Positions 50,561-63,998 of a stretch of 64,000 nucleotides of DNA are shown here, in pieces. A program made the position numbers and the translations under genes. Under the pieces are notes generated by a model. It was not told the origin of the DNA and did not search any database. It saw only the letters and a list, made by a program, of their open reading frames with translations. This DNA comes from an uncultured Candidatus Rokubacteria bacterium (lineage in GTDB: Bacteria; Methylomirabilota; Methylomirabilia; Rokubacteriales; DASRDR01). The DNA lies in NCBI GenBank assembly GCA_963826115.1, contig CAWGVS010000010.1:384001-448000 (forward strand). Reading direction: 5' to 3'. Within the stretch, counting starts at the first letter, position 1, and each line of letters begins with the position of its first letter.

Positions 50561-50760
50561 CGGGGTCGCCTCCTCGCCCGCGATGACATCCGCCCTCTCG
50601 GACGGACCGCTCAGGCTGCCTCGTACGACCAAAGTCGTATGGACCACCCCGATCCCGGGACCGATACTGAGGCCGCCTGGGGTATCGCTCGAGAGTGGGC
50701 AGCCAGGTGTACGTTGAAGGTTCCACCGCCCGGCGTGACGGGGGTGAAGGGAGACGAGAG

Positions 50761-53218
50761 ATGGATGACCCCGTGATGAGGCCGAGCGAGCCGCGCCTGC
50801 CCGTGACGCGTCCGGAGCCGCCCGCGGTCGGGCTGATGAGCCGACGAGCGGCGCTGGGCGGGCTGATCGTCCTCGCGTGGGAGGCGCGGGCGCTGGCCCA
50901 GACCCCGCCGGGGGGCGCGAGCCCGCCGATGTCCGCCGCGGACGCCCTGGCGGCGCGCGGCGCGCCGACCCCGGCGGACTGGCCCCGGGTGGTGAAGACG
51001 GGCGACACCACGATCGAGTACTACCTGCCCCAGCTCGACTCCTGGGACGGCCGCCGCCTCGAGACGCACAGCGCGGTCAGCATCCAGACCTCGGCGAAGG
51101 CGCCGCCCGTGTTCGGCGTCGCCGTCGTCGTGGCCGACACCCAGGTGGACAAGGGCGCGCGCCAGGTGACCCTCGAGAACGTCCGGATCGAGAAGGTGAC
51201 GTTCCCCTCGGCGACGGCCCAGGAGGCGGCCTACCAGAAGCTCCTGCAGCAGAGCATCCCCGCCAAGGTCCGCACGATCGAGCTGGACCGGCTGGAGACC
51301 GCGCTGTCGATGAGCGAGCAGAAGGAGAAGGGCGAGTCGAAGCCCCTCAAGAACGACCCGCCGAAGATCGTGTTCTCGACGACGCCGGCCATCCTCGTCC
51401 TGATCGATGGCGCGCCGGTGTACCGGCCGGTCCCGGGGAGCACCAGCTACACGCGGGTCGTGAACACGCGTCCGCTCATCCTGAAGGACACGGGCGGGAA
51501 GCACTTCCTCCGGCTCTTTGACGGGTGGATGACCGCCACCGCCTTCACGGGACCATGGACCGTCGCCCCCACCGTGCCCGGGGGCGAGCTCGACAAGCTG
51601 GTCCAGAATCTGTCGAAGACGCAGTCCCTGGACCTCCTCGACTTCGTGGACCCGAAGGACCCGAAGAGCCGGCCGACCCTGGCGAAGGGCCCGGTCCCCA
51701 CGGTCGTGGTGGCGACCGAGCCCACCGAGCTGATCGTGACGCAGGGGGAGCCGAACTACTCGCCCATCGACGGCACCCAGCTCCTCTACGCGTCGAACAC
51801 GACCGGCCACGTCTTCAAGCACCTCGGCGACCAGCGGACCTACGTGCTGGTGACCGGGCGCTGGTTCCGCGCGGAGGCGCTTGCGGGTCCGTGGACGTTC
51901 GTTCCCGGCAAGGACCTCCCGCCGGACTTCGCGAAGATCCCCGACGAGAGCCCGAAGGAGAACGTGAAGGCGTCGGTGCCCGGCACTCCGCAGGCCGGAG
52001 AGGCCGTGATCGCGAACAGCCTGCCCGAGACGGCGGCGATCAAGATCAGCGAGGCGAAGCTTCCGGTGCCGAAGTACGACGGACCGCCCCAGCTCAAGCC
52101 GATCGAGGGCACGCCGCTGTCCTACGTCGTGAACAGCCCGCTGCCGGTGATCCACGTCCCGCCGGACCAGTACTACGCCCTCCAGAACGGGGTCTGGTTC
52201 GTCGCCCCGTCGCCCCAGGGACCGTGGAAGGTCGCGACCACCGTGCCCCCGGTCATCTACTCGATCCCGCCGAGCTCGCCGCTGCACTACGTCACCTACG
52301 TCTACGTGTACCGGGCGACGCCCCAGGTGGTGTACGTCGGCTACACGCCGGGGTACTACAGCGTCTACGTGTCCGACGGCGTCGTGGTCTACGGCACCGG
52401 CTACTCGTACGTGTCGTGGGACGGCACCGTCTGGTACGGCACGCCGGTCACCTACGGGTTCGCGACCGCTCCGACCTACACGCCGTGGACCGGCTGGGTC
52501 ATGGGCTTCGGCTTCGGGCTCGCGTTCGGTGCCGCGACGGCCGGCTGGGGCTGGGGCTCCTACCCCTGGTGGGGTCCCTATCACTATGGTTACGGCTCCG
52601 GCCGGGCCGTCGGGCCGTACGGCGCCGCGGCGTGGGGTCCCGGTGGCTGGGCCGCGACCACCGGGAACGTCTACAGCCGGTGGGGCGACACCGCTGCGGT
52701 CACCCGCCACTCGGCGGGCTACAACGCGTGGACGGGGAACGCATGGGCGGGCGGCGCGGGGATGTCCTACAACTCGCGGACCGGCACCGTCGCGGCCGGC
52801 CAGCGGGGCGTCGTCAGCAACGCCTACACCGGCAACTACGCCTACGGGGGGCGCGGCGCCGCGGTGAACCCGAACACGGGGCAAGCGGTGTCGGCGCGGA
52901 CGCGTGACGGCGGGGAACGCCTACTCCGGCCAGGCCGGCTCGGCCGGCTACGTCCGGGGGGAGCAGGGCGGTGTGGCCCGAGTCGGCAACGACGTCTACG
53001 CCACCCGCGACGGCTCGGTCTACCGCAACACGGGCAGCGGCTGGCAGCAGAACAGCGGCAGCGGCTGGGGCAACGTGAGCGAGCCGGCGCGCACGCAGTC
53101 GCTCAACAACGAGGCCCAGGCCCGCTCGAGCGGCCAGACCCGCGTCAACAACTACCAGGCATCGGGCGGATACCGCGGCGGGGGCGGCGCTCGCGGGGGC
53201 GGCGGCCGACGGCGGTAA
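50761..53218 (+). CDS. large exported protein with Tyr/Gly/Trp-rich C-terminus, +1 frameshift at ~52895
   Basis: Twin-arginine-like signal (SRRAALGG); Y.L.TGRWFR....GPW repeats; YVGYTPGY; ends RGGGGRRR in ORF 52904. Confidence 0.75.
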
Positions 53219-53382
53219 CGCGCGTCGGCGCCGGCGCGTCGTTCGACCGCGGCGACGGCTCGATGGTACGCCATGGGGCGTTTGCCCCGTCGCGCCGCGG
53301 CCGTGACTCGATCGCGGGGAGTCACACAACCAGCGGGCAATGGTCCCGGCGAGGAGACCGGCCCGGGACAGGGGAAATCGCG

Positions 53383-53839
53383 ATGGGACGGATCGTCGGA
53401 GTCCTGGCGCTCCTCGCAGCCTATCGGCCGGATGCGCGACGCCGGGCGGGATCCCGATGCCGCAGGCCGACGTGGACGCGGTCAACCAGGCCGTCGAGGC
53501 GCACCGGGCGGCGTTCAACGCGCGCAACCTCGACGCGCTGCTCCTGGGCATCGCGGACGACGCCAGGGTCGTGTCGCTGCCCGCGTTCGGCACCGGACGC
53601 GGAGCGGGCGACGGCCAGGTGACGAAGGTCCAGTACCGGGAGGACATGACGGCCCTGATGGCGCGCGGCGACGGACGCTGCTCGAGCACGCCCGGTGGAC
53701 CGTGGAGTTCGCGGATGCGACCCACGCGACGGCCAAGGGGCAGGGCCAGCTCGGCGAGAGCCGCGGCGACTTCCAGTACAAGCTCGAGAAACGGCAGGGC
53801 CGCTGGGTGATCGTCGAGTCCACGGTGAAGCGGAAGTAG
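53383..53839 (+). pseudogene. NTF2/SnoaL-like lipoprotein broken by two frameshifts
   Basis: Signal plus GCAT lipobox, AFNARNLDALL, and KRQGRWVI lie in three different frames. Confidence 0.55.
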
Positions 53840-55446: not shown

Positions 55447-55563
55447 CCAGCCCCATCGTCCGGAGGGTCGCAGCGATCGCCGGGCTCGCGGTCGCCGTGG
55501 CCGCGGGCGACGTCCGGGCCGGCGTCATGTAACCTGGTAGTGATCGTGGCGCTGAGCGAAGCG

Positions 55564-55956
55564 CTAGCGAGGCGCGCCCGCCGCGGGCTTCAGCACGAGG
55601 AAGTCGGCCACGCCGATCAGGCGCAGGATGAGGCGGACGGGCCAGGGCACCATCCGCCGGGACGGGTCGTGGACCACCTCGGGGTGGACCAGGCGGACGT
55701 GCCGGCCGCGCGTCTCCACGACGCATGCGCCGGCCGCCAGGACGTTCTTCACCCACTCGCTGTCGCGCCCGTAGGTCAATGCGATCGCGTAGCCCAGGCC
55801 CTGCGCAAAGATGTTCACCGGCGTGCGCCGCACCCGGCCGCTCGTCCGGCCGACGTGGGTCACCATGGCGAAGCCGGGCGCCCACCACGCGATGTGCCGC
55901 AGGATGGGATTGGTCAGGATCAGGTTGAGTCGGGCGACGGCCCTGGGAATCGGCAT
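55564..55956 (-). CDS. deazaflavin (F420)-dependent nitroreductase family protein
   Basis: H.GR.SGR.RRTPV, YG..S.WVKNVLA.G. Confidence 0.8.
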   Translation of the reverse strand: MPIPRAVARLNLILTNPILRHIAWWAPGFAMVTHVGRTSGRVRRTPVNIFAQGLGYAIALTYGRDSEWVKNVLAAGACVVETRGRHVRLVHPEVVHDPSRRMVPWPVRLILRLIGVADFLVLKPAAGAPR

Positions 55957-56055
55957 CGCAGCTCCAAGGTACGCCGGCTCGGCGGCTCGCCGCGAGCGCT
56001 CGAGGCGCTGTGATATGGTGAGGCGGGCGCACGTCAGGACGCCCGGGAAGAGGCC

Positions 56056-56415
56056 ATGGTGGCGGAGCGCTTCATCATGAACGCCGGTCGGACGACCAAG
56101 CAGGGGCAGCAGGTCAACGCCGGCAAGGACTCCCCGGAGTATCGGGCGATCGTGAGCACCCTGACCATGCACCCCGAGGACATGCGGACGGTCGGCGTCG
56201 CCGCCGGCGGCTCCGTCCGGGTGCGCACGCCCCACGGCGAGGCGGTCTTCCAGTGCGTCGAGGGGAAGGTCCCCGCGGGGATGATCTTCGTCCCCTACGG
56301 CCCGCCCACCTGCCGGCTGATGGGCGGCGAGACCGACGGGACCGGCATGCCGACGTCCAAGGGCTGGGAGGTCGAGGTCGAGGCCATCGGGCCCGACGGC
56401 CCGGCCTCGGCGTAG
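56056..56415 (+). CDS. fwdD: formylmethanofuran dehydrogenase subunit D (molybdopterin dinucleotide-binding)
   Basis: GRT..QG...GK.S.EY, M.PEDM, G..V.V....G, G.IF.PYGP, T.GTGMP..KG. Confidence 0.88.
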   Translation: MVAERFIMNAGRTTKQGQQVNAGKDSPEYRAIVSTLTMHPEDMRTVGVAAGGSVRVRTPHGEAVFQCVEGKVPAGMIFVPYGPPTCRLMGGETDGTGMPTSKGWEVEVEAIGPDGPASA

Positions 56416-56448
56416 ACCGTCTCGCGACGCGGGATCGGGGAGCGCACG

Positions 56449-56607
56449 ATGGCAGAGCGGTTCGAAGAAACAAGGATGGGGGAGCGGGACGCCGCGCGGC
56501 CCGACGCTCCGGCCGGCGGCCACACCCCGGCCTGGGAGCTGGTCGAGCCCGGGCGCTACCGACCCCTCCGGATCCGGGGGAGCTTCCCCGGCCGCGAGCT
56601 CGGCTGA
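56449..56607 (+). CDS. possible 52-aa small protein inside the fwd operon
   Basis: ATG with GGGGAG RBS; MAERFEETRMGERD...WELVEPGRYRPLRIRGSFPGRELG*. Confidence 0.35.
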   Translation: MAERFEETRMGERDAARPDAPAGGHTPAWELVEPGRYRPLRIRGSFPGRELG

Positions 56608-56663
56608 ACGTTCGCGGTGCCGCCCGGTCCGGGGCGGCCAGACGAGGCGGAAGCGGGAGACCG

Positions 56664-57998
56664 ATGACCGTCACGGTCGTGAAGAACGCGACGTGCACCT
56701 TCTGCGGGTGCGTCTGCGACGACATCGAGCTCCACGCCGATGGCACGCGGATCCTCAAGAGCAAGAACGCCTGCAGCCTCGGCGACGCCTGGTTCCAGAA
56801 CCACACGGCCGAGCGCCTGTACCCCGACGCGCTGGTGGACGGGAAGCCCGCGACGCTCGACGCCGCGGTGGAGGCGGCCGCGAGCTTCCTCCACGCCGCG
56901 GACATGCCGCTCGTCTACGGCCTCAGCAACATCACCTGCGAGGCCCAGCGGGAGGCGGTGGCGATCGCCGAGCTGATCGGCGGCGTGATCGACAGCCACA
57001 CCTCCCTCTGACACGGCCCCACTGAGATAGCCGCCCAGTTGGGGGGCAAGGTGACGTGCACGCTGGGGGAAGTGAAGAACCGGGCGGACCTCATCATCTA
57101 CTGGGGCGGTAATCCGGCCGAGTGCCACCCGCGGCACTTCACGAAGTACACGCTGACCCAGAAGGGGAAGTACGTCCCGCAGGGCCGGAAGGGCCGCTAC
57201 ATGGTCCTGGTCGACATCCGCGAGACGCCCAGCGCGCGCGCGGCCGACCTGTTCCTCCAGATCCGGCCCGGCAAGGACTTCGAGGTCGTCACCACGCTCC
57301 TGGCGCTCGTGAAGGGCCGCCCGGTGGACGCCGAGCGCGTCGCCGAGACTGGCATGACGGTCGAACAGCTCCAGGACCTCGCGGACCGGATGAAGCGCGC
57401 CCGCTTCGGCGTCCTGTTCTTCGGGATGGGCCTGTCGATGACGCGGGGGAAGCACATGAACTCCGCGTCGGTCCTGACCCTGGTCACGGCGCTGAACGCC
57501 TACACGAAGTTCGTCGCCATGCCGATGCGGGGCCACGGCAACGTGACCGGCGCCGACATGGTGATCCGCTGGACGACGGGCTACCCGTTCGGCGTCAACC
57601 TGGCCCGCGGCTACCCCCGCTTCAATCCCGGCGAGTTCTCGACCGTGGACCTCCTCGTCCGCGGCGACAACGACGCCGCGCTCATCCTGGGGGCCGATCC
57701 GGGCGCCACGATGCCCCAGCCCGGCATCGAGCACCTGCGCCGCATCCCGACGATCGTCCTCGACCCGAAGGTGACCCACACCAGCCGCATGGCGCGCGTG
57801 CACATCACGACCGCCGCCACCGGCATCAGCGCGCCCGGCACCGTGTACCGCATGGACGAGGTGCCGCTCCCGCTCCGGCCCGCCCTCAGCTCCCCGTACC
57901 CGACCGACGAGGAGGTCCTGCGCCGCATCCGCCGGGCCGTCGCGGCGAAGCCGGCCTGGACGCCGGCGGCGTCGAACGGTCGACCGCGCTCCGCCTGA
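56664..57998 (+). CDS. fwdB: formylmethanofuran dehydrogenase subunit B, selenocysteine-containing (TGA 57009-57011, codon 116), 444 aa
   Basis: CTFCGCVCDD...C [4Fe-4S] motif; DSHTSL-U-HGP...TCTLGEVKNRAD; WG.NP...HPRH; MRGHGNV; the two ORF halves are in the same frame. Confidence 0.9.
57012..57053 (+). promoter_or_regulatory. candidate bacterial SECIS hairpin
   Basis: CCCCACTG (57017-24) pairs with CAGT-T-GGGG (57036-44); outer CAC/GTG pair; rare ACT, ATA and TTG codons cluster here. Confidence 0.6.
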
Positions 57999-58003
57999 CC
58001 GCG

Positions 58004-59638
58004 ATGCTCCGCATCACCGGCGGGAAGGTCTACGATCCCGCCAACGGCGTGGACGGCGAAGTCCGGGACGTCGCCATCGCGGATGGCCGGATCGTGTCCC
58101 ACGTCGAGGGCGGGCGGACGATCGACGCGACGGGCATGGTCGTCGTCCCCGGTGGCGTCGACGCCCACACCCACGTGGCCGGCGCCGCGCTCAACTTCGC
58201 GCGCGCCATGACCCCGGAAACCCAGCGGCAGGCGCTTCCGTTCCTCCACACGCCGGAGCGGCGGATGGGGCTCGGCGGCCTCACGCCCACGACCTTCGCC
58301 ACCGGGTACCTCTACGCCGGCATGGGCTACACGACGGTCACCGAGGCCGCGGTGCCGGTGCTCACCGCCAAGCACACGCACGAGGAGCTCCGCGACACGC
58401 CGATCCTCGACAAGGCGTGCCTGCTCCTCATGGCCAACAACGAGATCGTGATGGACCTCCTGGAGGCCGGGGAGACGGAGCGCGCCGGTCACGTCGTGGC
58501 CTGGCTCATCTGGGCCGCCAAGACGTACGGCGTGAAGGCGGTCAACCCGGGCGGCGTGGCGGCCTGGAAGTGGGGCGGGAACGCGAAGGGGCTCACCGAT
58601 CCGATCGAGGGCTACCGCACCGTGACCCCGGCCCGGATCATCGAGAGCCTGGCGGATATCATCGACGGCCTCGGGCTCCCGCACCCGCTCCACCTTCACT
58701 GCAACGCGCTCGGCATGCCGGGCAACGTCGCGACCACGCTCGAGACCATGCGGATATTGGAGGGCCGCCGGGCCCACCTGGCGCACCTCCAGTTCCACGC
58801 GTACGGCGGCGACGACTGGGCCACGATGCGCTCGGAGGCGCCGGCGGTCGCCGAGTACTTCAACGCGCACCCGGGCTTCACGGCCGACGCCGGCGCGATC
58901 CTGTTCGGGAACGCCATGACGATCACCGCCGACGGGCCCTGGCAGCACCTGCTCCACGAGCTGACCGGGCGCAAGTGGGGCAACATCGACGTCGAGAACG
59001 AGACGGGGTGCGGCATCGTGCCGTACGTCTACAAGAAGCGCAGCCTCGTCAACGCGGTGCAGTGGGCGACGGGGCTCGAGCTCCTGCTGCTCGTCACCGA
59101 CCCCTGGCGGATCTTCCTGACCACCGACCATCCGAACGGAGCCGGCTTCTGGCGCTACGCGGAGATCGTCCAGCTCCTGACGGACGTGGACTACCGCCGG
59201 GAGCGGGTGAAGAGCCTGCCGACCAAGGCGCTCAAGCGGATCGTGCTCCCGGAGCTCGACCGCCGGTACACGCTGTCGGAGATCGTGACCATCACCTCCG
59301 CGGGGCCGGCGCGGGCTCTCGGCCTCTCGCGGAAGGGGCATCTCGGCGTCGGCGCGGACGCGGACGTGGCGATCTACTCCGAGCGCGCGGGCGTCGTGGC
59401 GATGTTCCAGTCGCCCCGCTACGTCCTGAAGGGCGGCGAGATCGTCGTCGAGGAGGGCCAGGTCCGGGCGGTGACCGAGGGCCGCGAGTTCGTCGTCCGG
59501 CCCGCCTTCGATCCCGGCATCGAGGACTACCTCCGGCCGGTGTTCCAGCAGTCCTACACCATGTCCTTCGACAACTACCCGGTCGAGGCCGAACGCGTCC
59601 ACGGCATGGAGCTGGCCGAGTGCCGGCCCCGCGCGTGA
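58004..59638 (+). CDS. fwdA: formylmethanofuran dehydrogenase subunit A (amidohydrolase)
   Basis: VYDP.NG, D.HTH.AG, YA.MGYTT, K.VNPGG, HLHCN.LG.PGN, H.QFH.YG, E.ETGCG, TTDHPNG. Confidence 0.95.
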   Translation: MLRITGGKVYDPANGVDGEVRDVAIADGRIVSHVEGGRTIDATGMVVVPGGVDAHTHVAGAALNFARAMTPETQRQALPFLHTPERRMGLGGLTPTTFATGYLYAGMGYTTVTEAAVPVLTAKHTHEELRDTPILDKACLLLMANNEIVMDLLEAGETERAGHVVAWLIWAAKTYGVKAVNPGGVAAWKWGGNAKGLTDPIEGYRTVTPARIIESLADIIDGLGLPHPLHLHCNALGMPGNVATTLETMRILEGRRAHLAHLQFHAYGGDDWATMRSEAPAVAEYFNAHPGFTADAGAILFGNAMTITADGPWQHLLHELTGRKWGNIDVENETGCGIVPYVYKKRSLVNAVQWATGLELLLLVTDPWRIFLTTDHPNGAGFWRYAEIVQLLTDVDYRRERVKSLPTKALKRIVLPELDRRYTLSEIVTITSAGPARALGLSRKGHLGVGADADVAIYSERAGVVAMFQSPRYVLKGGEIVVEEGQVRAVTEGREFVVRPAFDPGIEDYLRPVFQQSYTMSFDNYPVEAERVHGMELAECRPRA

Positions 59639-59645
59639 CCCCCGC

Positions 59646-60455
59646 ATGATCACGCTGACGCTCACGCGGCCGCCGACCGTGCCCCTCGAGGCGGAGAGCA
59701 TCTCGCCGGACGTCATGGCGCCGCTCTCCCACGACGCGATCCGAGCCCTGCCGGTGCTCCTGGGGAAGCGGCAGCGCCGTCTCGACGACTTCTTCGCGGT
59801 CGAGGGCGTGGCGAGCGACGAGCTCCTGATCCGGGGCGACCTCGGGCGGGTCAAGTGGATCGGCCGGGGCATGACGCGCGGCCGCATCGCCATCGAGGGC
59901 AACGCGGGCATGCACCTCGGGGCCTCCATGCGGGGCGGGACGATCGAGGTCCGCGGCAACGTGTCCGACTGGCTGGGCGCCGAGATGTCGGGTGGGCTCA
60001 TCCGGGTCCGCGGCAACGCCGGCGGCCAGGTGGGGGCCGCCTATCGCGGCAGCCCCCGAGGGATGAACCAGGGGACGATCCTGATCGAGGGCTCGGCGGG
60101 CATCGAGCTGGGGATGCGGATGCGGCGCGGCGTCATCGCCGTCGCCGGTCCCGTGCGCGACTTCGCCGGGCTCCAGATGAAGGGCGGGACGATCTTCCTG
60201 CTGGGCGGGGCGGAGATCCGGACCGGCGCCTGGATGAGCCGCGGCACGATCGTCTCCATGAAGCCGCTCCACCTCCTGCCGACGTTCACCTACGCCTGCA
60301 CATATCAGCCCACGTTCCTGCGCCTCTACGCGCGACATCTCGAGACCCTCGGGTTGCCCATTCCCGCCGATTCCGGGGATGGGTCCTACCAGCGCTACAC
60401 GGGGGACACGTCGGGCCTGGGCAAGGGCGAGATCTTGGTGTGGGAGGCGCGGTAA
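59646..60455 (+). CDS. fwdC: formylmethanofuran dehydrogenase subunit C
   Basis: EAE.ISPD, repeated G..M.GG.I.V.GN beta-helix units, LLPTF.Y, GD....GKGEI. Confidence 0.93.
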   Translation: MITLTLTRPPTVPLEAESISPDVMAPLSHDAIRALPVLLGKRQRRLDDFFAVEGVASDELLIRGDLGRVKWIGRGMTRGRIAIEGNAGMHLGASMRGGTIEVRGNVSDWLGAEMSGGLIRVRGNAGGQVGAAYRGSPRGMNQGTILIEGSAGIELGMRMRRGVIAVAGPVRDFAGLQMKGGTIFLLGGAEIRTGAWMSRGTIVSMKPLHLLPTFTYACTYQPTFLRLYARHLETLGLPIPADSGDGSYQRYTGDTSGLGKGEILVWEAR

Positions 60456-60590
60456 CCAGCGGGACACGACGGGGGTCGGCATGGCAGGCAGCATGACGCG
60501 TCGCGCCAGGGCGACCGAAGCCGTTCCGGTGGCACCCGCGGTCGACGCGAGGTCGTAGGGTACCCTGGAGGTCGCCACAGGGCGCCAGAC

Positions 60591-61460
60591 ATGCCTCTCC
60601 GCGTAACGAAGCCAGAGCTGGAGTTGGACGTCCCGAAGGGCGCCTCCGCCGTTCCCCACACGGTGGTCAGCTTCCGGGACCTGATTCCGGCCGTCCAGGA
60701 GGACGAGCTCGCCGTCGAGGAGCCGCTCGAGATCCGGCTGGGCGGTACGAGTCTCGCCGTGACCATGCGGACGCCCGGGCACGACGAGGAGCTCGTCGCG
60801 GGCCTGCTGCTCTCTGAGCGCGTGATCGAGGGCCCCGCCGACATCGACGTGATCGCCCACTACACCGGACCGGACGACGATCCCCGGGTCGGGAACGTGA
60901 TCAACGTCCTCCTGAACCGTCCCGGCCCCGCGATCCACCAGCGCCTCCACCGGAGCTTTTTCACGTCCTCCGCCTGCGGCCTCTGCGGCAAGACCTCGCT
61001 GGACGCGATCGACTTGGACTTCCAGCCCGTTGCCGGCGACGTCACGGTGTCCCTCGACGCGCTCTACACGCTCGTCCCCGCGCTGACCGCGGTGCAGGCG
61101 ACCTTCGAGCGGACGGGTGGCCTCCACGCGGCCGCGCTCTTCGACTCCACCGGGCAGCTCCTGGCGGTGCGGGAGGACGTGGGGCGGCACAACGCCGTCG
61201 ACAAGGTCGTCGGCCACATGCTGCTGACGGGCGGCCTGCCCCTCGACCGGCACATCCTGATGGTGAGCGGACGGGCGAGCTTCGAGATCATGCAGAAGGC
61301 GCTGGTGGCGCGGATCCCTGTCGTGGCCGCCATCTCGGCGCCGTCGAGCCTGGCGGTCCAGCTGGCGCTCGCCAACGGCGTGACCCTCATCGGCTTTCTG
61401 CGCCCCGGGCGGCTCAACGTGTACGCGAATTCCCACCGGCTCCGGCCGGAGCCTGCGTGA
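60591..61460 (+). CDS. fdhD: formate dehydrogenase accessory sulfurtransferase
   Basis: VEEPLEI, TMRTPG.D.EL, SACGLCG, TGG.HAA, EDVGRHNA.DK, SAPSSLA. Confidence 0.95.
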   Translation: MPLRVTKPELELDVPKGASAVPHTVVSFRDLIPAVQEDELAVEEPLEIRLGGTSLAVTMRTPGHDEELVAGLLLSERVIEGPADIDVIAHYTGPDDDPRVGNVINVLLNRPGPAIHQRLHRSFFTSSACGLCGKTSLDAIDLDFQPVAGDVTVSLDALYTLVPALTAVQATFERTGGLHAAALFDSTGQLLAVREDVGRHNAVDKVVGHMLLTGGLPLDRHILMVSGRASFEIMQKALVARIPVVAAISAPSSLAVQLALANGVTLIGFLRPGRLNVYANSHRLRPEPA

Positions 61461-61498: not shown

Positions 61499-61684
61499 TT
61501 ACGACGGAGTGGCGCCCTGGCGAAGGCGGTCGATGAGCGCCGTCACCTCTTCGAGGCGCGCGCGCACCTCCCGCTCGGACTCGCGTATCTCCTCCAGCGA
61601 AGACCGGTTCTGAACCGCGTCCTCGTACGCGGTCACGGCCACACCGAACACCCTCAGGAGGCGGCGGGTCTCGTCGCTGGGCAT
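61499..61684 (-). CDS. small helical hypothetical protein (61 aa)
   Basis: MPSDETRRLLRVFGVAVTAYED...; GAAGGAAGG RBS; overlaps the AOR 3' end. Confidence 0.55.
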   Translation of the reverse strand: MPSDETRRLLRVFGVAVTAYEDAVQNRSSLEEIRESEREVRARLEEVTALIDRLRQGATPS

Positions 61685-63501
61685 CGATGTCCTTCCTTCT
61701 CGGCCGCGGGAATTCCGAGCTCGGTGGCCTTCCATTGGGGAACGAACCCGTGTTCGTCCCACTGCCTCGCCTCGTAGTAGCCGCCCACCATCTCGCGTAG
61801 CTCGTCTCGAGACAACCCGATGCCGGCGGCGACCCCGGTCGGCAGCGATTCGCTCAGCAATCGCTCGGGCAGCCAGTCGTCCTCGGGTTGCCAGCGCTCT
61901 CGGATGTTGAAGAGCTTCTTCAGCGTGTGGATGCGTTCGCCCGCGCGACGTAACTCCGCGCCCGTGTAGTCCCAGCCCGTCACTGCGGCGAGCATCTCCG
62001 CGGCTTCCGCGTAGAAGTCGGTGAAGCACTTCCGCAGAAACTTGCAGACGATCAGCGAGTCCAGCACCGCGGCGAAGTCTTCCGACGCCGCGACCAGGGT
62101 GCCCCGGCTCGCGTCACCGCGGAATCGATCCACCTCGCCGGAAAAGTCGGCTTCGTACGCGCCCGACCGGTTGTGACAGGCGCCGCGCGGGCTGACGGCC
62201 AGGCCCAGCGCCATGGTCTTCAGGCTTCGCGGGTCGTACCCCGGAAGCTCGAGACCCTTCACCTGCATCGCCCAGTAGCCACTGTCCCGGCCGGTCTCGA
62301 TCGCGGCGCGTTTCGATCCCTCGGCCAGGAGATCGCCCACGCCTTCCCGATTGGCAATCGCGCCGATCGTGGCCAGGACCGCTTCGCCGTGGCCGAAGCG
62401 CAATCCGAGCGCCTCCGCCTCGGGCAGCACTCCCTTCTGGACGCTCTCGATCGCCCATGCGAGCGTGCCGCCGGTGCTGATCGTATCGAGACCATAGCGA
62501 TCGCAGAGACGAGCCGCGGCGAGCACGACCTCGGGATCGCTGATGCCGCAGAGCGGCCCGAGCGCAAACAAGGTCTCGTACTCGAGCCTCTGTTCTTCGC
62601 CGCCGCGCGACGCGAAGAGCCGCTCGCAGCGAATCGAGCAAGATGCGCAGCCGTGCCGGCGGCTGAAGCTCGTTTCGGTCAGCGACTCCCCGGTCAGGGC
62701 ATCGGCCTCTTCGAAGGTGGCCTGCTGGAAGTTGCGCGTGGGCAGCGTGCCGAGGCGGTTGAACACCGCCAGGTTGGCGACGGTCCCGACGAGCCGGTAC
62801 TTGGCGGTCACCGCGCCGAGGCTGCGGCGTCGCAGCGACTCGGCGATGGCGCTCACCTGTCGGGGATCCGCGACCAACGTGGCCCGGTCGCCGGACACTG
62901 CGATGGCCTTCAGGTTCTTGGACCCCATCACTGCGCCGACGCCGCCCCGGCCGGCATGGCGACCCTCGTTGCTGATGGTGGCGAAGCGGACCCGGTTCTC
63001 GCCGGCGCTGCCAATGGACGCCACCCACGCGCCCCGGCACCCCCCGTCGGAGCGGATGAACGATTGCGTCTCCTCCGGGGTCTTCCCCCTCAGCTGGTCG
63101 GCCGCTCGAATCTCGACCTCCTCGCCACGGATGAACAGGTAGACCAAGGACGGCGCCTGGCCGGTGATCACCAGAGCATCGATGCCGAGCCGCTTCAGCT
63201 CCAGGGCGAAGTGGCTCGACGAGAGCGAGTCCGCGATGAATCCGGTCAACGGCGACTTGGTGACGACCGCGAACTTCGCCGTCGTGGTGAGACCGGTTCC
63301 GACCAGGGGTGCGGTTGCGAAGATCAGGGGGTTGTCGGCTGACAGTGGATCGACTCCCGGGGGCGCATAGTCGTGGAGCAGGCTCACCCCAAGGCCTATG
63401 CCGCCCATGTACATGCGCAGCCGCGACTCTTCCAGGTCGTGGTGCGCGCTACGCCCGCTCGTCAGATCGATGTGCAGGACGCGGCCGGAAAAGCCGTGCA
63501 C
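61654..63501 (-). CDS. aor: aldehyde:ferredoxin oxidoreductase family (tungstopterin) enzyme
   Basis: G..GR.L.IDL, KSPLTG, GRGG.GAVMGSKNLKAI, CASCSIRC, EYET, CD.YGLDTIS, YDPR, RGACH; GTG start. Confidence 0.92.
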   Translation of the reverse strand: MHGFSGRVLHIDLTSGRSAHHDLEESRLRMYMGGIGLGVSLLHDYAPPGVDPLSADNPLIFATAPLVGTGLTTTAKFAVVTKSPLTGFIADSLSSSHFALELKRLGIDALVITGQAPSLVYLFIRGEEVEIRAADQLRGKTPEETQSFIRSDGGCRGAWVASIGSAGENRVRFATISNEGRHAGRGGVGAVMGSKNLKAIAVSGDRATLVADPRQVSAIAESLRRRSLGAVTAKYRLVGTVANLAVFNRLGTLPTRNFQQATFEEADALTGESLTETSFSRRHGCASCSIRCERLFASRGGEEQRLEYETLFALGPLCGISDPEVVLAAARLCDRYGLDTISTGGTLAWAIESVQKGVLPEAEALGLRFGHGEAVLATIGAIANREGVGDLLAEGSKRAAIETGRDSGYWAMQVKGLELPGYDPRSLKTMALGLAVSPRGACHNRSGAYEADFSGEVDRFRGDASRGTLVAASEDFAAVLDSLIVCKFLRKCFTDFYAEAAEMLAAVTGWDYTGAELRRAGERIHTLKKLFNIRERWQPEDDWLPERLLSESLPTGVAAGIGLSRDELREMVGGYYEARQWDEHGFVPQWKATELGIPAAEKEGHRCPATRPAAS

Positions 63502-63503
63502 CG

Positions 63504-63998
63504 CTAGCCCCCCGCGTCCGCCGAGAGTATGACGATGTTGTCTCCCGGATTGACGGTGACCGTCGGCGTGCGGATGAAGTCCAGGCCGTTCACGTTGCAC
63601 GCAAAGCCGTCGATGAGGCGAGCCCGATCGGGGGCGATGACCCTGCCAACCAACACCGGCAGCTCGGCGGCGAGCGCCGCATAGACCTCGGAGAACGTCG
63701 CCCCCGCGGGCAGGCTGAGCGACACCTCCCTGGTGTGGGCCAGGAAGCGCGCAGCGCCGAACAGCTCGACGGTGCACTGAATCGTGGCATCCGAGCGCAG
63801 GCCGGGTGATCGGCGCGCCTGGCTCCAGCGCCTCTGCGCCTCTGCGTAGTCCTCCGGCGTGTTCATGTTGAAGAAGCTCGAACCGTCGGGGTCGAAGCGG
63901 CGAATCTCCTCCTCGTCGACCCTGCGGGTGCGAACGCGATCGAACAGATAGACGGGCCTCAGCTGCCCGCGCGCGAGGAGCTCCGCGAGGTGCGGTAG
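63504..63998 (-). CDS. MobA-like nucleotidyltransferase C-terminus fused to a MoaD/ThiS domain (5' end outside the window)
   Basis: Open frame from the window end: ...FDPDGSSFFNMNTPEDY (MobA C-terminal motif), then VELFG.AR...NVNG...ILSADAGG. Confidence 0.78.
   Translation of the reverse strand, partial: LPHLAELLARGQLRPVYLFDRVRTRRVDEEEIRRFDPDGSSFFNMNTPEDYAEAQRRWSQARRSPGLRSDATIQCTVELFGAARFLAHTREVSLSLPAGATFSEVYAALAAELPVLVGRVIAPDRARLIDGFACNVNGLDFIRTPTVTVNPGDNIVILSADAGG

What the first reader, a model, noticed from the sequence alone, without database searches (positions are those of the whole stretch)
56056..61460. Catalytically complete, methanogen-type fwdDBAC-fdhD operon in a bacterium, with no formyltransferase
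Seen: the order is fwdD, fwdB(Sec), fwdA, fwdC, fdhD. FwdB keeps its [4Fe-4S] cysteines, ligand residue and following His, FwdA keeps its metal-binding motifs, and no ftr, mch or polyferredoxin (fwdF/G) gene is in the window. Established: the methylotroph complex Fhc (fhcBADC) includes Ftr, lacks FwdD, and its FhcB has lost the pterin cofactor and is redox-inactive. Inference: this is a real W/Mo-bisPGD formate/CO2 redox module coupled to a formyl-amide hydrolase and matured by FdhD. The C1 carrier, electron partner and direction are unknown. It could oxidise formyl-methylofuran to CO2, fix CO2, or act on another N-formyl compound. I cannot confirm novelty without a search.
Basis: partly seen in the sequence, partly recalled or inferred. 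Interest (0 to 1): 0.9.

Follow-up and report, generated by a model that had tools for sequence, protein, structure and literature searches.

The report
Bacterial formylmethanofuran dehydrogenase with hidden selenoprotein
A soil bacterium carries a complete, selenium-dependent version of the methanogens' CO2-forming enzyme as the last step of its formaldehyde-oxidation pathway, and inside the operon sits a small, apparently undescribed selenocysteine-containing gene.

Summary
The operon is real: fwdD, fwdB (in-frame TGA at the metal-ligand position), fwdA, fwdC and fdhD. All catalytic signatures are kept, and FwdB resembles archaeal FwdB, not cofactor-less FhcB. "No formyltransferase" holds only for the window. 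Another contig of the genome carries fae, ftr, mch, an mtd-type dehydrogenase, mptG and methanofuran-synthesis genes mfnB/E/F. The genome has only one FwdA, one FwdB and one FdhD. So this is most likely the terminal, CO2-forming step of an H4MPT/methanofuran formaldehyde-oxidation pathway.

The kind is already in print: Kim 2016 reported Sec-fmdB in an fmdD-B-A-C operon of a planctomycete, and Wells 2023 reported bacterial FwdB. It is also widespread; 73 of the 80 related loci fetched have the TGA.

It occurs in 71 of 80 loci. The TGA is invariant in 67 of 67, amino-acid-level selection acts on both sides of it, and a covarying SECIS-like hairpin follows it. It matches no Pfam or NCBIfam family. 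I read it as a new small selenoprotein tied to Sec-type bacterial Fwd; its role (subunit or selenium-sensing translational gate) is open. The electron acceptor is also unknown.

The parts
56056..56415 (+). fwdD (119 aa), the molybdopterin-dinucleotide-binding 'fourth domain' subunit
   Evidence: Pfam PF01568 E 3e-12; NCBIfam FwdD model 82 bits. PDB FwdD chains match at E 5.8e-19 and 1e-18.
56449..56667 (+). Small ORF of 72 codons with an in-frame TGA (candidate selenoprotein, U53). Its final stop, 56665-56667, overlaps the fwdB ATG as ATGA.
   Evidence: Found in 71 of 80 related loci. TGA in 67 of 67. Synonymous-codon pattern on both sides of the TGA. No Pfam or NCBIfam family. 214 database proteins match its profile.
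56605..56607 (+). TGA read as selenocysteine in the small ORF
   Evidence: Invariant in 67 of 67 sequences. Flanked by the conserved motif ..GR.LG-U-TF.VP...
56619..56638 (+). SECIS-like hairpin (7-bp stem, loop GGUCCG) starting 11 nt after the small ORF's UGA
   Evidence: MFE fold. On 67 sequences, 90.8% of cells are paired against 27.5-49.3% when slid. 5 of 7 pairs carry compensatory changes, 66 cells in all; 0 of 500 shuffles reach the observed value.
56664..57998 (+). fwdB (444 aa), W/Mo-bisPGD and [4Fe-4S] subunit with Sec116
   Evidence: TIGR03129 502.5 bits. Full-length match to archaeal FwdB structures. It is the only FwdB-class match in the genome.
57009..57011 (+). TGA read as selenocysteine, the metal ligand of FwdB
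   Evidence: Aligned to the ligand Cys/Sec of solved FwdB chains. TGA at this position in 73 of 80 related loci.
57030..57047 (+). Conserved hairpin GCCGCCC-AGUU-GGGGGGC downstream of the fwdB UGA (putative SECIS)
   Evidence: 98.0% of cells paired against 29.0-56.4% when slid. Synonymous sites are almost invariant, and only 1 cell shows a compensatory change. The single-sequence fold is not better than shuffles.
58004..59638 (+). fwdA (544 aa), amidohydrolase (formyl-methanofuran-forming/hydrolysing) subunit
   Evidence: TIGR03121 679.1 bits. PDB FwdA 484 bits against FhcA 357 bits. Metal motifs are aligned. It is the only such gene in the genome.
59646..60455 (+). fwdC (269 aa), GXGXG beta-helix subunit
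   Evidence: TIGR03122 261.7 bits. PDB FwdC/FhcC matches.
60591..61460 (+). fdhD (289 aa), sulfurtransferase that matures formate-dehydrogenase-type Mo/W-bisPGD centres
   Evidence: NF001943 290 bits. It is the only FdhD in the genome. It lies next to fwdC only in the closest relatives, L020 and L021.

Best explanation
The window encodes a redox-active, selenocysteine-dependent formylmethanofuran dehydrogenase (FwdABCD type) of a Rokubacteria-like soil bacterium. I propose that it works in the oxidative direction, as the last step of an H4MPT/methanofuran-linked formaldehyde-oxidation pathway whose other genes lie on another contig. The proposed route is as follows:

- Fae, the Mtd-type dehydrogenase and Mch convert formaldehyde to formyl-H4MPT.
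- Ftr passes the formyl group to a methanofuran-type carrier.
- FwdA hydrolyses formyl-methanofuran.
- The formate is oxidised to CO2 at the Sec-ligated W/Mo-bisPGD centre of FwdB/FwdD. This replaces the formate release of the cofactor-less Fhc complex of proteobacterial methylotrophs.
- Electrons leave through the FwdB [4Fe-4S] cluster to an unidentified acceptor, most simply a soluble ferredoxin.
- FdhD supplies the sulfido ligand.

Shown here: gene content, conserved residues, Sec machinery, pathway genes and synteny with ftr. Inferred: direction, carrier, metal and acceptor.

Between fwdD and fwdB the operon also encodes a 72-residue selenoprotein (U53) found wherever this Sec-type cluster occurs. 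I rate it about 0.85 likely to be translated through its UGA. For its role I give about 0.5 to a small extra subunit or accessory of the enzyme, about 0.3 to a selenium-dependent translational gate for fwdB, and the rest to other roles.

Within the genus, this unlinked Sec-type operon appears to have taken the place of the Cys-type fwdDBA/fwdC genes that other members keep inside the fae-ftr cluster.
For: Families and catalytic residues.

Single FwdA, FwdB and FdhD in a genome that is 99% complete.

Pathway genes on C3:80223-95260 are fae, ftr, beta-RFAP synthase, mch, an MfnF-like gene (TIGR03123), MfnE-like, MfnB (PF04476), a DHPS-like gene and Mpt_N.

Sec machinery comprises tRNA-Sec, selA, selB and selD, and a second Sec enzyme (NAD-type FDH) is present.

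Synteny across the 80 loci: fwdD in 73, fwdA in 67, fwdC in 54, ftr adjacent in 30. TGA at the ligand position in 73 of 80.

Small ORF:
- It occurs in 71 of 80 loci. The nine without it are the five Cys-type clusters and four loci with no fwdD upstream.
- The TGA is present in 67 of 67 sequences. The true stops are mixed TGA/TAA/TAG.
- Invariant G, R, P, S and L residues are encoded by 3-5 synonymous codons each.
- Mean entropy by codon position is 0.49/0.54/1.44 before the TGA and 0.73/0.48/1.23 after it.
- The hairpin shows compensatory changes.
- Of the 150 best of 214 database matches, 148 stop just before the Sec column. One carries Cys there and one Trp.

Replacement within the genus:
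- The window's FwdB groups with L020 and L021 (support 100). That group sits inside a 17-row set dominated by Acidobacteriota (support 95).
- Other Methylomirabilota/Rokubacteria rows fall in the Cys-type clade.
- The C3 Fae and Ftr are 86-88% identical to those Cys-type clusters, while FwdB is only 64% identical.
- In the same genus, G095 and G149 have a non-TGA FwdB 2-3 kb from ftr. G096 and G108 have the TGA type unlinked to ftr.
Against: - No enzyme, metal or selenium measurement exists for any bacterial member.
- No FwdF/FwdG polyferredoxin or any ferredoxin motif is in the window, so the electron path is unexplained.
- No PQQ methanol dehydrogenase was found in the genome, so the source of formaldehyde is unknown.
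- The genome also has a separate Sec-dependent NAD-type formate dehydrogenase. That enzyme would be redundant if no free formate were made.
- The fwdB hairpin has almost no covariation (1 cell), and its single-sequence fold is no better than shuffles (z = 0.34).
- For the small ORF there is no protein-level evidence. Part of the conservation just after the UGA may be imposed by the RNA hairpin.
- The conserved core has no hydrophobic pattern typical of a folded domain.
- The tree is FastTree with midpoint rooting, so a donor cannot be named.
- The genome bin has 5.3% estimated contamination.
Confidence: 0.65

Rival explanations
1. The small ORF is not a subunit but a selenium-sensing upstream ORF. 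With selenium, ribosomes read its UGA as Sec and terminate at or near the fwdB start (ATGA overlap in the window), which allows coupled translation of fwdB; fwdB itself needs Sec. Without selenium they stop 57 nt earlier and fwdB stays untranslated. The conserved 26 residues before the UGA would then act as a nascent peptide in the exit tunnel that slows RF2-mediated release, as TnaC does (recalled).
For: In the window and in 8 related loci the second stop overlaps the fwdB ATG, and in five other loci, all Acidobacteriota-labelled MAGs (L023-L027), it lies 2-16 nt away. The conserved stretch is about as long as the exit tunnel and ends exactly at the UGA. The tail after the hairpin is variable in length and sequence. 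The ORF occurs only with the Sec-type fwdB clade.
Against: In many Planctomycetota loci the second stop lies 50-300 nt before fwdB, which is too far for simple coupling. F at +2 is invariant with both of its codons used (37 TTC, 30 TTT), and T and P after the UGA are conserved; this points to selection on the finished product. L097 keeps the ORF although its fwdB has lost the ligand motif.
Confidence: 0.3
2. The complex works like Fhc. FwdA hydrolyses formyl-methanofuran to free formate, FwdB/FwdD serve only as a scaffold, and the separate NAD-type formate dehydrogenase oxidises the formate.
For: A Sec-dependent NAD-type FDH with a NuoE/F-like subunit lies about 55 kb away on the same contig. 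Some full-length bacterial homologues carry Ser or Thr at the ligand position (6 of the 11 aligned), so redox-dead forms probably exist in this family.
Against: The window's FwdB keeps Sec, His, Arg, His and all four cluster cysteines, and it has FwdD. Fhc lacks all of these features (PMC6926001 passages). The costly TGA is kept in 73 of 80 loci across several phyla.
Confidence: 0.05
3. The enzyme runs in the reductive, methanogen-like direction. It fixes CO2 to formyl-methanofuran and on to methylene-H4MPT for assimilation under anoxic, low-potential conditions.
For: Fwd enzymes are reversible (passages of PMC11656701). A tungsten-type aldehyde:ferredoxin oxidoreductase gene lies next to the operon, which hints at low-potential ferredoxin metabolism.
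Against: The linked genes include fae (formaldehyde-activating enzyme), and the layout is that of the bacterial oxidative module. No hydrogenase, Hdr or polyferredoxin partner is nearby. I did not search the genome for a downstream assimilation route.
Confidence: 0.08
4. The module acts on another N-formyl compound and is independent of the H4MPT pathway.
For: The operon is unlinked to ftr in this genome.
Against: It holds the only FwdA and FwdB in a genome that has ftr, mch, fae, mtd and mfnB/E/F. ftr is adjacent to the same cluster in 30 of 80 relatives. FwdA is 45-50% similar over its full length to archaeal FwdA.
Confidence: 0.04

Closest known systems
Archaeal tungsten/molybdenum formylmethanofuran dehydrogenase FwdABCD(FG) (e.g. 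Methanothermobacter wolfeii, PDB 5T5I; Sec forms in Methanopyrus and Methanococcus)
   Same: It has the four core subunits A, B, C and D. FwdB keeps the [4Fe-4S] motif, the Sec/Cys-His ligand motif and the Arg/His of PMRGH. FwdA keeps the binuclear-metal motifs. Full-length sequence matches reach E 1e-105 to 1e-144.
   Different: It occurs in a bacterium. No FwdF/FwdG polyferredoxin is nearby. It is linked to fae/ftr of the oxidative bacterial pathway. It carries an additional small Sec ORF between fwdD and fwdB, which I did not find in the Methylomirabilis-like Sec-type fwdD-fwdB locus L102. Archaeal operons were not searched for this ORF.
Formyltransferase/hydrolase complex FhcABCD of Methylorubrum extorquens (PDB 6S6Y)
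   Same: It holds the same place in the pathway (formyl-H4MPT to C1 product through a furan carrier). The A and C subunits are homologous, at 357 and 126 bits. In many relatives ftr lies adjacent.
   Different: FhcB lacks the cluster domain, the ligand Cys (Ser62 instead), His119 and Arg288, and Fhc has no FwdD (PMC6926001 passages). The window's FwdB matches FhcB only at E 1.9e-14 over about 95 residues. Fhc releases formate, whereas this enzype should release CO2.
Planctomycete fmdD-fmdB(Sec)-fmdA-fmdC operon (Rhodopirellula-like 'P2', Kim et al. 2016, PMC4807772)
   Same: It has the same gene order and Sec in subunit B, in a bacterium. The paper also notes the operon on a Lake Washington fosmid and in Ca. 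Methylomirabilis oxyfera (passages). My survey places the window in the same clade as 61 Planctomycetota rows.
   Different: In the passages I saw, the paper does not mention a second, small Sec ORF between fmdD and fmdB. Its supplementary selenoprotein table (S9) could not be opened. Here the host is Rokubacteria-like, fdhD is attached and ftr is unlinked.
VhuU, the 25-residue Sec-containing subunit of the Methanococcus [NiFeSe] hydrogenase (recalled; listed as MvhA/VhuA/VhuU in Table 1 of PMC13188914)
   Same: It is a precedent for a very small, separately encoded selenopeptide that forms part of a metalloenzyme.
   Different: VhuU is a split-off C-terminus of the large subunit and carries a metal-binding motif. 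The small ORF here has no detectable similarity to any Fwd subunit or any other family.

Membership tests
Formylmethanofuran dehydrogenase (Fwd/Fmd) | Subunit B with an N-terminal [4Fe-4S] Cys motif and a Sec/Cys-His metal-ligand motif plus the active-site Arg | tested here: met
   C11, C14, C18 and C37 are present. S-L-U-H-G-P aligns to the ligand Cys/Sec of 5t5i_B and 9sfi_Q, and PMRGH is kept. Residue roles come from PMC6926001.
Formylmethanofuran dehydrogenase (Fwd/Fmd) | Separate subunit D (fourth domain capping the pterin) | tested here: met
   fwdD lies at 56056-56415, with PDB FwdD matches at E 5.8e-19. Its NCBIfam score of 82 bits is below that model's 175-bit cut-off.
Formylmethanofuran dehydrogenase (Fwd/Fmd) | Subunit A amidohydrolase with binuclear-metal ligands, and subunit C with a GXGXG beta-helix | tested here: met
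   TIGR03121 679 bits and TIGR03122 262 bits.
Formylmethanofuran dehydrogenase (Fwd/Fmd) | Polyferredoxin/ferredoxin subunits FwdF/FwdG for electron transfer | tested here: not met
   No CxxCxxCxxxC motif occurs in any frame of the 64-kb window. Inserts between fwdB and fwdA in relatives are unrelated genes. I did not search the whole genome for ferredoxins.
Formylmethanofuran dehydrogenase (Fwd/Fmd) | W or Mo content and formyl-methanofuran:acceptor oxidoreductase activity | not testable with these tools
   This needs purified enzyme.
Formyltransferase/hydrolase complex (Fhc) | Subunit B without cluster domain, ligand residue or pterin site, and no subunit D | tested here: not met
   The window's FwdB has all of these features and FwdD is present. 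FhcB matches only at E 1.9e-14 over residues 57-152.
Bacterial selenoprotein (small ORF 56449-56667) | In-frame TGA conserved among homologues, with protein-level conservation on both sides | tested here: met
   TGA in 67 of 67 sequences. Entropy by codon position is 0.49/0.54/1.44 before and 0.73/0.48/1.23 after the TGA. F at +2 is invariant, with TTC 37 and TTT 30.
Bacterial selenoprotein (small ORF 56449-56667) | SECIS hairpin shortly downstream of the UGA with G/U in the apical loop | tested here: met
   The hairpin starts 11 nt after the UGA, with loop GGUCCG in the window. 90.8% of cells are paired and 5 of 7 pairs have compensatory changes. No Rfam family matched.
Bacterial selenoprotein (small ORF 56449-56667) | Sec-decoding machinery in the same genome | tested here: met
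   tRNA-Sec is at C8:85942-86039, with selA and selB beside it, and selD is on C5.
Bacterial selenoprotein (small ORF 56449-56667) | Homologues with Cys in place of Sec | tested here: inconclusive
   1 of the 150 listed matches has Cys (P0122) and 1 has Trp (P0123, possibly a TGA read as W). The DNA of neither was seen.
Bacterial selenoprotein (small ORF 56449-56667) | Selenium incorporation shown (75Se labelling or mass spectrometry) | not testable with these tools
   No experiment exists. RNA-library contigs give no decoding information.

The most novel reading that the evidence does not exclude
The 72-codon ORF between fwdD and fwdB defines a selenoprotein family that has not been catalogued and is strictly tied to the Sec-type bacterial formylmethanofuran dehydrogenase of Planctomycetota, Acidobacteriota, Rokubacteria and some Actinomycetota. 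It would be either a fifth, Sec-bearing subunit that takes part in electron exit or protection of the W/Mo centre in these mostly aerobic bacteria, or the first selenium-sensing translational gate built from a Sec codon. In either case bacterial Fwd would not be a simple copy of the archaeal enzyme.
Probability: 0.45. Interest if true: 0.75.

Novelty: new variant of a known kind. Interest (0 to 1): 0.62.

Why it matters
Formylmethanofuran dehydrogenase is treated as an archaeal enzyme of methanogenesis. The only studied bacterial relative, Fhc, is redox-dead.

The survey here shows a catalytically intact, selenium-dependent form to be common in soil and aquatic bacteria: more than 590 matches among species-representative genomes, and 73 of the 80 fetched with the Sec codon. 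In these bacteria the H4MPT pathway would therefore end in CO2 plus low-potential electrons rather than in formate. That changes how C1 and selenium or tungsten demand should be read from such genomes, all the more because gene callers cut fwdB at the TGA (most database hits are 314-318-residue fragments).

The small Sec ORF gives a concrete, testable new component. Cultivated planctomycetes that carry the operon would allow 75Se labelling, purification and genetics. This could reveal how a strongly oxygen-sensitive type of centre is wired or regulated in aerobes.

Tried and rejected
- Rfam: a gathering-threshold search of the whole window found only a tRNA. An E-value search of 55500-57200 found nothing, so there is no known riboswitch or SECIS family.
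- Single-sequence fold of the fwdB post-UGA stretch: no better than shuffles.
- Inserts between fwdB and fwdA in ten related loci, checked as possible electron-transfer partners: they are toxin-antitoxin genes, Uma2, AAA and unknown genes. Rejected.
- Window neighbours (aminotransferase, ABC transporter, HAD hydrolase, an F420H2-quinone-reductase-like gene, GH15, RND pump, sigma factor) gave no partner.
- PQQ methanol dehydrogenase was not found in the genome.
- Methylomirabilis-like genome G008: its TGA-type fwdB (47.5% identity) has fwdD 40 nt upstream and no small ORF. The ORF therefore belongs to one clade only.
- ESM Atlas with P0122 returned only unnamed 48-55-residue planctomycete clusters at scores of 0.82-0.87. 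This is a lead only.
- Complex prediction (database FwdB, window FwdD and database small protein): the verdict was 'no answer' at score 0.00, with controls not run. It counts neither for nor against binding.
- Metatranscriptomes: nine RNA runs hold small shares. Contigs from four of them lie on fwdD, on fwdB and, in X1 and X2, on 56574-56614, with unlike flanks that look like relatives' copies of the small ORF and its hairpin. They are contigs from RNA libraries and show neither transcription of this organism nor decoding. I did not use them as evidence.
- A tree with archaeal FwdB and FhcB could not be built, because no archaeal or Fhc sequences were available as usable records. PDB match scores were used instead.
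- Supplement S9 of PMC4807772 (selenoprotein candidates) could not be read and may list the small ORF.
- About 1,200 characters of Table 1 of PMC13188914 were not shown in the passages I saw.

Full report
OBSERVATION. On the + strand the window carries fwdD (56056-56415), fwdB (56664-57998), fwdA (58004-59638), fwdC (59646-60455) and fdhD (60591-61460). NCBIfam scores pass the curated cut-offs for subunit B (502.5 bits, cut-off 327.8), subunit A (679.1, cut-off 392.75), subunit C (261.7, cut-off 130.65) and FdhD (290, cut-off 269). FwdD is recognised by Pfam Molydop_binding and, below cut-off, by the FwdD model. fwdB has an in-frame TGA at 57009-57011.

Against solved structures, FwdB matches archaeal FwdB chains over its whole length (E 4.9e-112 to 1.7e-94). 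It matches the cofactor-less FhcB of Methylorubrum only at E 1.9e-14 over residues 57-152. The TGA aligns with the tungsten-ligand Cys of 5t5i_B and with the X (Sec) of 9sfi_Q, in the motif S-L-U-H-G-P. The C-x2-C-x3-C...C cluster motif and the Arg and His of PMRGH are kept. The roles of Cys118, His119 and Arg288 are taken from passages of PMC6926001. FwdA is closer to archaeal FwdA (484 bits) than to FhcA (357 bits), and its HxH, Lys, His, His and Asp motifs align. No ferredoxin-type Cys motif occurs in any frame of the window.

GENOME CONTEXT. The window is G000:C10:384001-448000 of a 6.24-Mb, 12-contig genome with 99.09% completeness and 5.34% contamination. "No formyltransferase" holds only for the window. 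Contig C3 carries:
- fae, ftr (TIGR03119, 446 bits), a beta-RFAP synthase and mch;
- a few kb further on, MfnF-like (TIGR03123, 353 bits), MfnE-like and MfnB (PF04476, 224 bits) genes, a dihydropteroate-synthase-like gene and an Mpt_N (methylene-H4MPT dehydrogenase type) gene.

The genome has only one FwdA-class and one FwdB-class gene, those of the window, and one FdhD. tRNA-Sec, selA and selB lie together on C8, and selD (itself with a TGA) is on C5. A second Sec enzyme, an NAD-type formate dehydrogenase alpha subunit with a NuoE/F-like partner, lies about 55 kb downstream on C10. No PQQ methanol dehydrogenase was found.

The simplest reading is that the operon supplies the terminal step of an H4MPT/methanofuran-linked formaldehyde-oxidation pathway. 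Formyl-methanofuran would be oxidised to CO2 at a Sec-ligated W/Mo centre instead of being hydrolysed to formate as by Fhc. The direction, the metal, the exact furan carrier and the electron acceptor are inferred or unknown.

DISTRIBUTION AND PRIOR KNOWLEDGE. A protein search gave 6775 hits at E <= 1e-10 among 8000 scored candidates. Most of the best 120 are 314-318-residue fragments at 91-93% identity, that is, genes cut at the TGA by gene callers. A scan of species-representative genomes found 590 relatives; the best 80 loci were fetched. By their titles they are Planctomycetota (61 tree rows), Acidobacteriota (12), Candidatus Rokubacteria, Methylomirabilota, Actinomycetota, Chloroflexota and Nitrospirota MAGs. 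The closest, at 91%, is a Rokubacteria MAG.

Among the 80 loci:
- 73 have TGA at the ligand position, 6 have Cys and 1 has a degenerate motif. This sample was chosen by similarity to a Sec-type query.
- fwdD is found in 73, fwdA in 67, fwdC in 54 and all four genes in 48.
- ftr is adjacent in 30, and fdhD only in the two closest loci.

The type is already in print. Kim et al. 2016 (PMC4807772, passages) reported a Sec-fmdB in an fmdD-fmdB-fmdA-fmdC operon of a planctomycete, and noted the operon on a Lake Washington fosmid and in Ca. M. oxyfera. Wells et al. 2023 (PMC10100899, passages) counted 149 bacterial FwdB representatives. Chistoserdova 2016 (PMC5020050, passages) stated that fwdD is not present in Planctomycetes, which the present loci contradict. 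A 2024 review of these enzymes (PMC11656701, passages) mentions only Fhc as a bacterial relative. I found no biochemical study of a bacterial redox-active form in searches.

THE SMALL ORF. Between fwdD and fwdB there are 248 bases. They hold an ORF that starts at ATG 56449, with GGGGAG a few bases upstream. Under the standard code it ends at TGA 56605-56607 after 52 codons. Read through, it continues for 19 codons to a TGA at 56665-56667 that overlaps the fwdB ATG.

- Occurrence. A strict motif search found the ORF in 66 of 80 loci, and a looser one found it in 71 of 80, once per locus, and once in the window's own genome. The nine loci without it are the five Cys-type clusters (L094-L096, L098, L099) and four loci in which no fwdD precedes fwdB (L022, L044, L056, L082).
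- The TGA. In the window and the 66 strict matches the codon after ...G-R-x-L-G is TGA in 67 of 67. The frame stays open behind it with conserved T-F-x-V-P, and the real stops are a mixture of TGA, TAA and TAG.
- Selection at the amino-acid level. Invariant Gly, Arg, Pro, Ser and Leu residues are each written with three to five synonymous codons. Mean column entropy by codon position is 0.49/0.54/1.44 for the 26 codons before the TGA and 0.73/0.48/1.23 for the five after it. The invariant Phe at +2 uses TTC 37 times and TTT 30 times. This is the pattern of a translated frame on both sides of the TGA.
- Hairpin. A hairpin begins 11-14 nt after the TGA (window 56619-56638, loop GGUCCG). On 67 sequences, 90.8% of cells pair, against 27.5-49.3% for slid partners. 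Five of seven pairs show compensatory changes (66 cells), and 0 of 500 shuffles reach the observed value.
- Database matches. A profile of the family found 214 proteins (E <= 0.001) among 1.84 billion representatives. Of the 150 listed, 148 end just before the Sec column, one (P0122) has Cys there and one (P0123) has Trp.
- Families and literature. The ORF matches no Pfam or NCBIfam family even at E <= 10, apart from one chance-level hit at E 0.1 for one relative. The ESM Atlas returned only unnamed planctomycete clusters. In the parts of Table 1 of a 2026 review of prokaryotic selenoproteins (119 families) that I saw, nothing corresponds to it (PMC13188914).

I conclude that this is very probably a real selenoprotein gene. 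It has probably escaped annotation because it is short and is cut at its UGA.

The conserved stretch downstream of the fwdB UGA also forms a hairpin (57030-57047). It is 98.0% paired against 29.0-56.4% when slid. It is almost invariant at synonymous sites, including a TTG Leu codon, and has only one compensatory cell. The support is therefore conservation rather than covariation.

ROLE OF THE SMALL SELENOPROTEIN. Two readings fit the data.

(a) It is a small extra subunit or accessory of the enzyme. The product is under selection beyond the UGA. It occurs only with this FwdB clade. L097 keeps it although its fwdB has lost the ligand motif.

(b) It is a selenium-dependent translational gate. 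In the window and eight loci the second stop overlaps the fwdB start, and in five other Acidobacteriota-labelled loci (L023-L027) it lies 2-16 nt away. The conserved 26 residues end exactly at the UGA, like a nascent-peptide regulator. In many Planctomycetota, however, the gap to fwdB is 50-300 nt.

I put (a) at about 0.5 and (b) at about 0.3. A complex prediction gave no verdict and is not used.

EVOLUTION. In a FastTree of 85 FwdB rows, the window groups with L020 and L021 (support 100). That group sits inside a 17-row set of 11 Acidobacteriota, 3 Planctomycetota, 1 Rokubacteria and 2 unlabelled rows (support 95). Other Rokubacteria/Methylomirabilota rows (L096, L099, and both copies of G008) lie in the separate Cys-type clade. 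By contrast, the C3 Fae and Ftr are 86-88% identical to those of L096 and L099, whose cluster runs fae-fwdD-fwdB-fwdA-ftr-(mptG)-fwdC-mch.

In a sample of 150 further genomes of the phylum, 26 have FwdB; counting the window's own genome, that is 27 of 151. All five same-genus genomes checked have ftr:
- G095 and G149 have a non-TGA fwdB 2-3 kb from ftr.
- G096 and G108 have the TGA type on another contig, as here.
- G149 also has a broken TGA-type copy.
- G065 has ftr but no FwdB match at E <= 1e-50.

This fits replacement of the in-cluster Cys-type genes by a laterally acquired Sec-type operon. The tree is midpoint-rooted and was not tested, so I name no donor and no order of events.

VERDICT. 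Its claims of a missing formyltransferase and an unknown carrier are not supported, and the operon type is already described and widespread. What raises the interest is the unannotated small selenoprotein gene, together with the open question of how electrons leave a polyferredoxin-less Fwd in these bacteria.

Noticed in passing
window 61654-63777 (- strand; the frame may extend further upstream): A tungsten-type aldehyde:ferredoxin oxidoreductase gene (AFOR_N and AFOR_C, E 3.6e-69 and 9.1e-115) lies convergent to fdhD. The same neighbour, at 93% identity, follows the operon in the Rokubacteria MAG locus L021. This hints at tungsten and ferredoxin metabolism near the operon.
   Followed up: partly
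G000:C10:499657-503311 (about 55 kb beyond the window's fwd operon): A second Sec enzyme: an NAD-type formate dehydrogenase alpha subunit with an in-frame TGA, next to a fused NuoE/NuoF-like subunit. A xanthine-dehydrogenase-family Mo enzyme lies downstream.
   Followed up: partly
alignment A1; L060 and L063: Full-length bacterial FwdB homologues carry Ser (P0003, P0006, P0092) or Thr (P0008, P0025, P0085) at the metal-ligand position. Two Gemmataceae loci have tandem fwdB genes, a Thr type followed by a Sec type. These may be redox-dead, Fhc-like forms or Ser/Thr-ligated forms.
   Followed up: no
L097:8001-9311 (Gemmataceae MAG): This fwdB has lost the ligand motif (SDTVQRKSPPS in place of SHTSLUHGPTE) and sits on a long branch. 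Even so, the small Sec ORF with its TGA is intact upstream.
   Followed up: no
P0002: The closest full-length database protein (81% identity, NCBI source) lacks 26 residues exactly at and after the Sec site (..SLY then FIVYWGG..). It looks like a gene model built around the TGA, not a natural deletion.
   Followed up: no
G000:C5:561687-562604: selD itself has one in-frame TGA, so the selenophosphate synthetase of this genome is probably a selenoprotein too.
   Followed up: no
L102 and L103 (genome G008, same class): Methylomirabilis-like genomes often carry two FwdB genes. One is a Cys type inside fae-fwdDBA-ftr-fwdC-mch. The other is a TGA type with only fwdD beside it, without the small ORF and only about 47% identical to the window's.
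   Followed up: partly
window 50695-53622 (+): A 975-residue ORF matches no Pfam family. It has a signal-peptide-like start and a Gly/Tyr/Trp-rich C-terminal part.
   Followed up: no
window 55567-56013 (-): A small gene of the F420H2-dependent quinone reductase family (PF04075, E 6.4e-7) lies divergent from fwdD. Whether F420 has any link to the Fwd enzyme was not examined.
   Followed up: no
G000:C3:81616-82284: A 222-residue ORF between ftr and the beta-RFAP synthase gene matches no NCBIfam family. Its start overlaps the end of ftr, so the gene model is uncertain.
   Followed up: no
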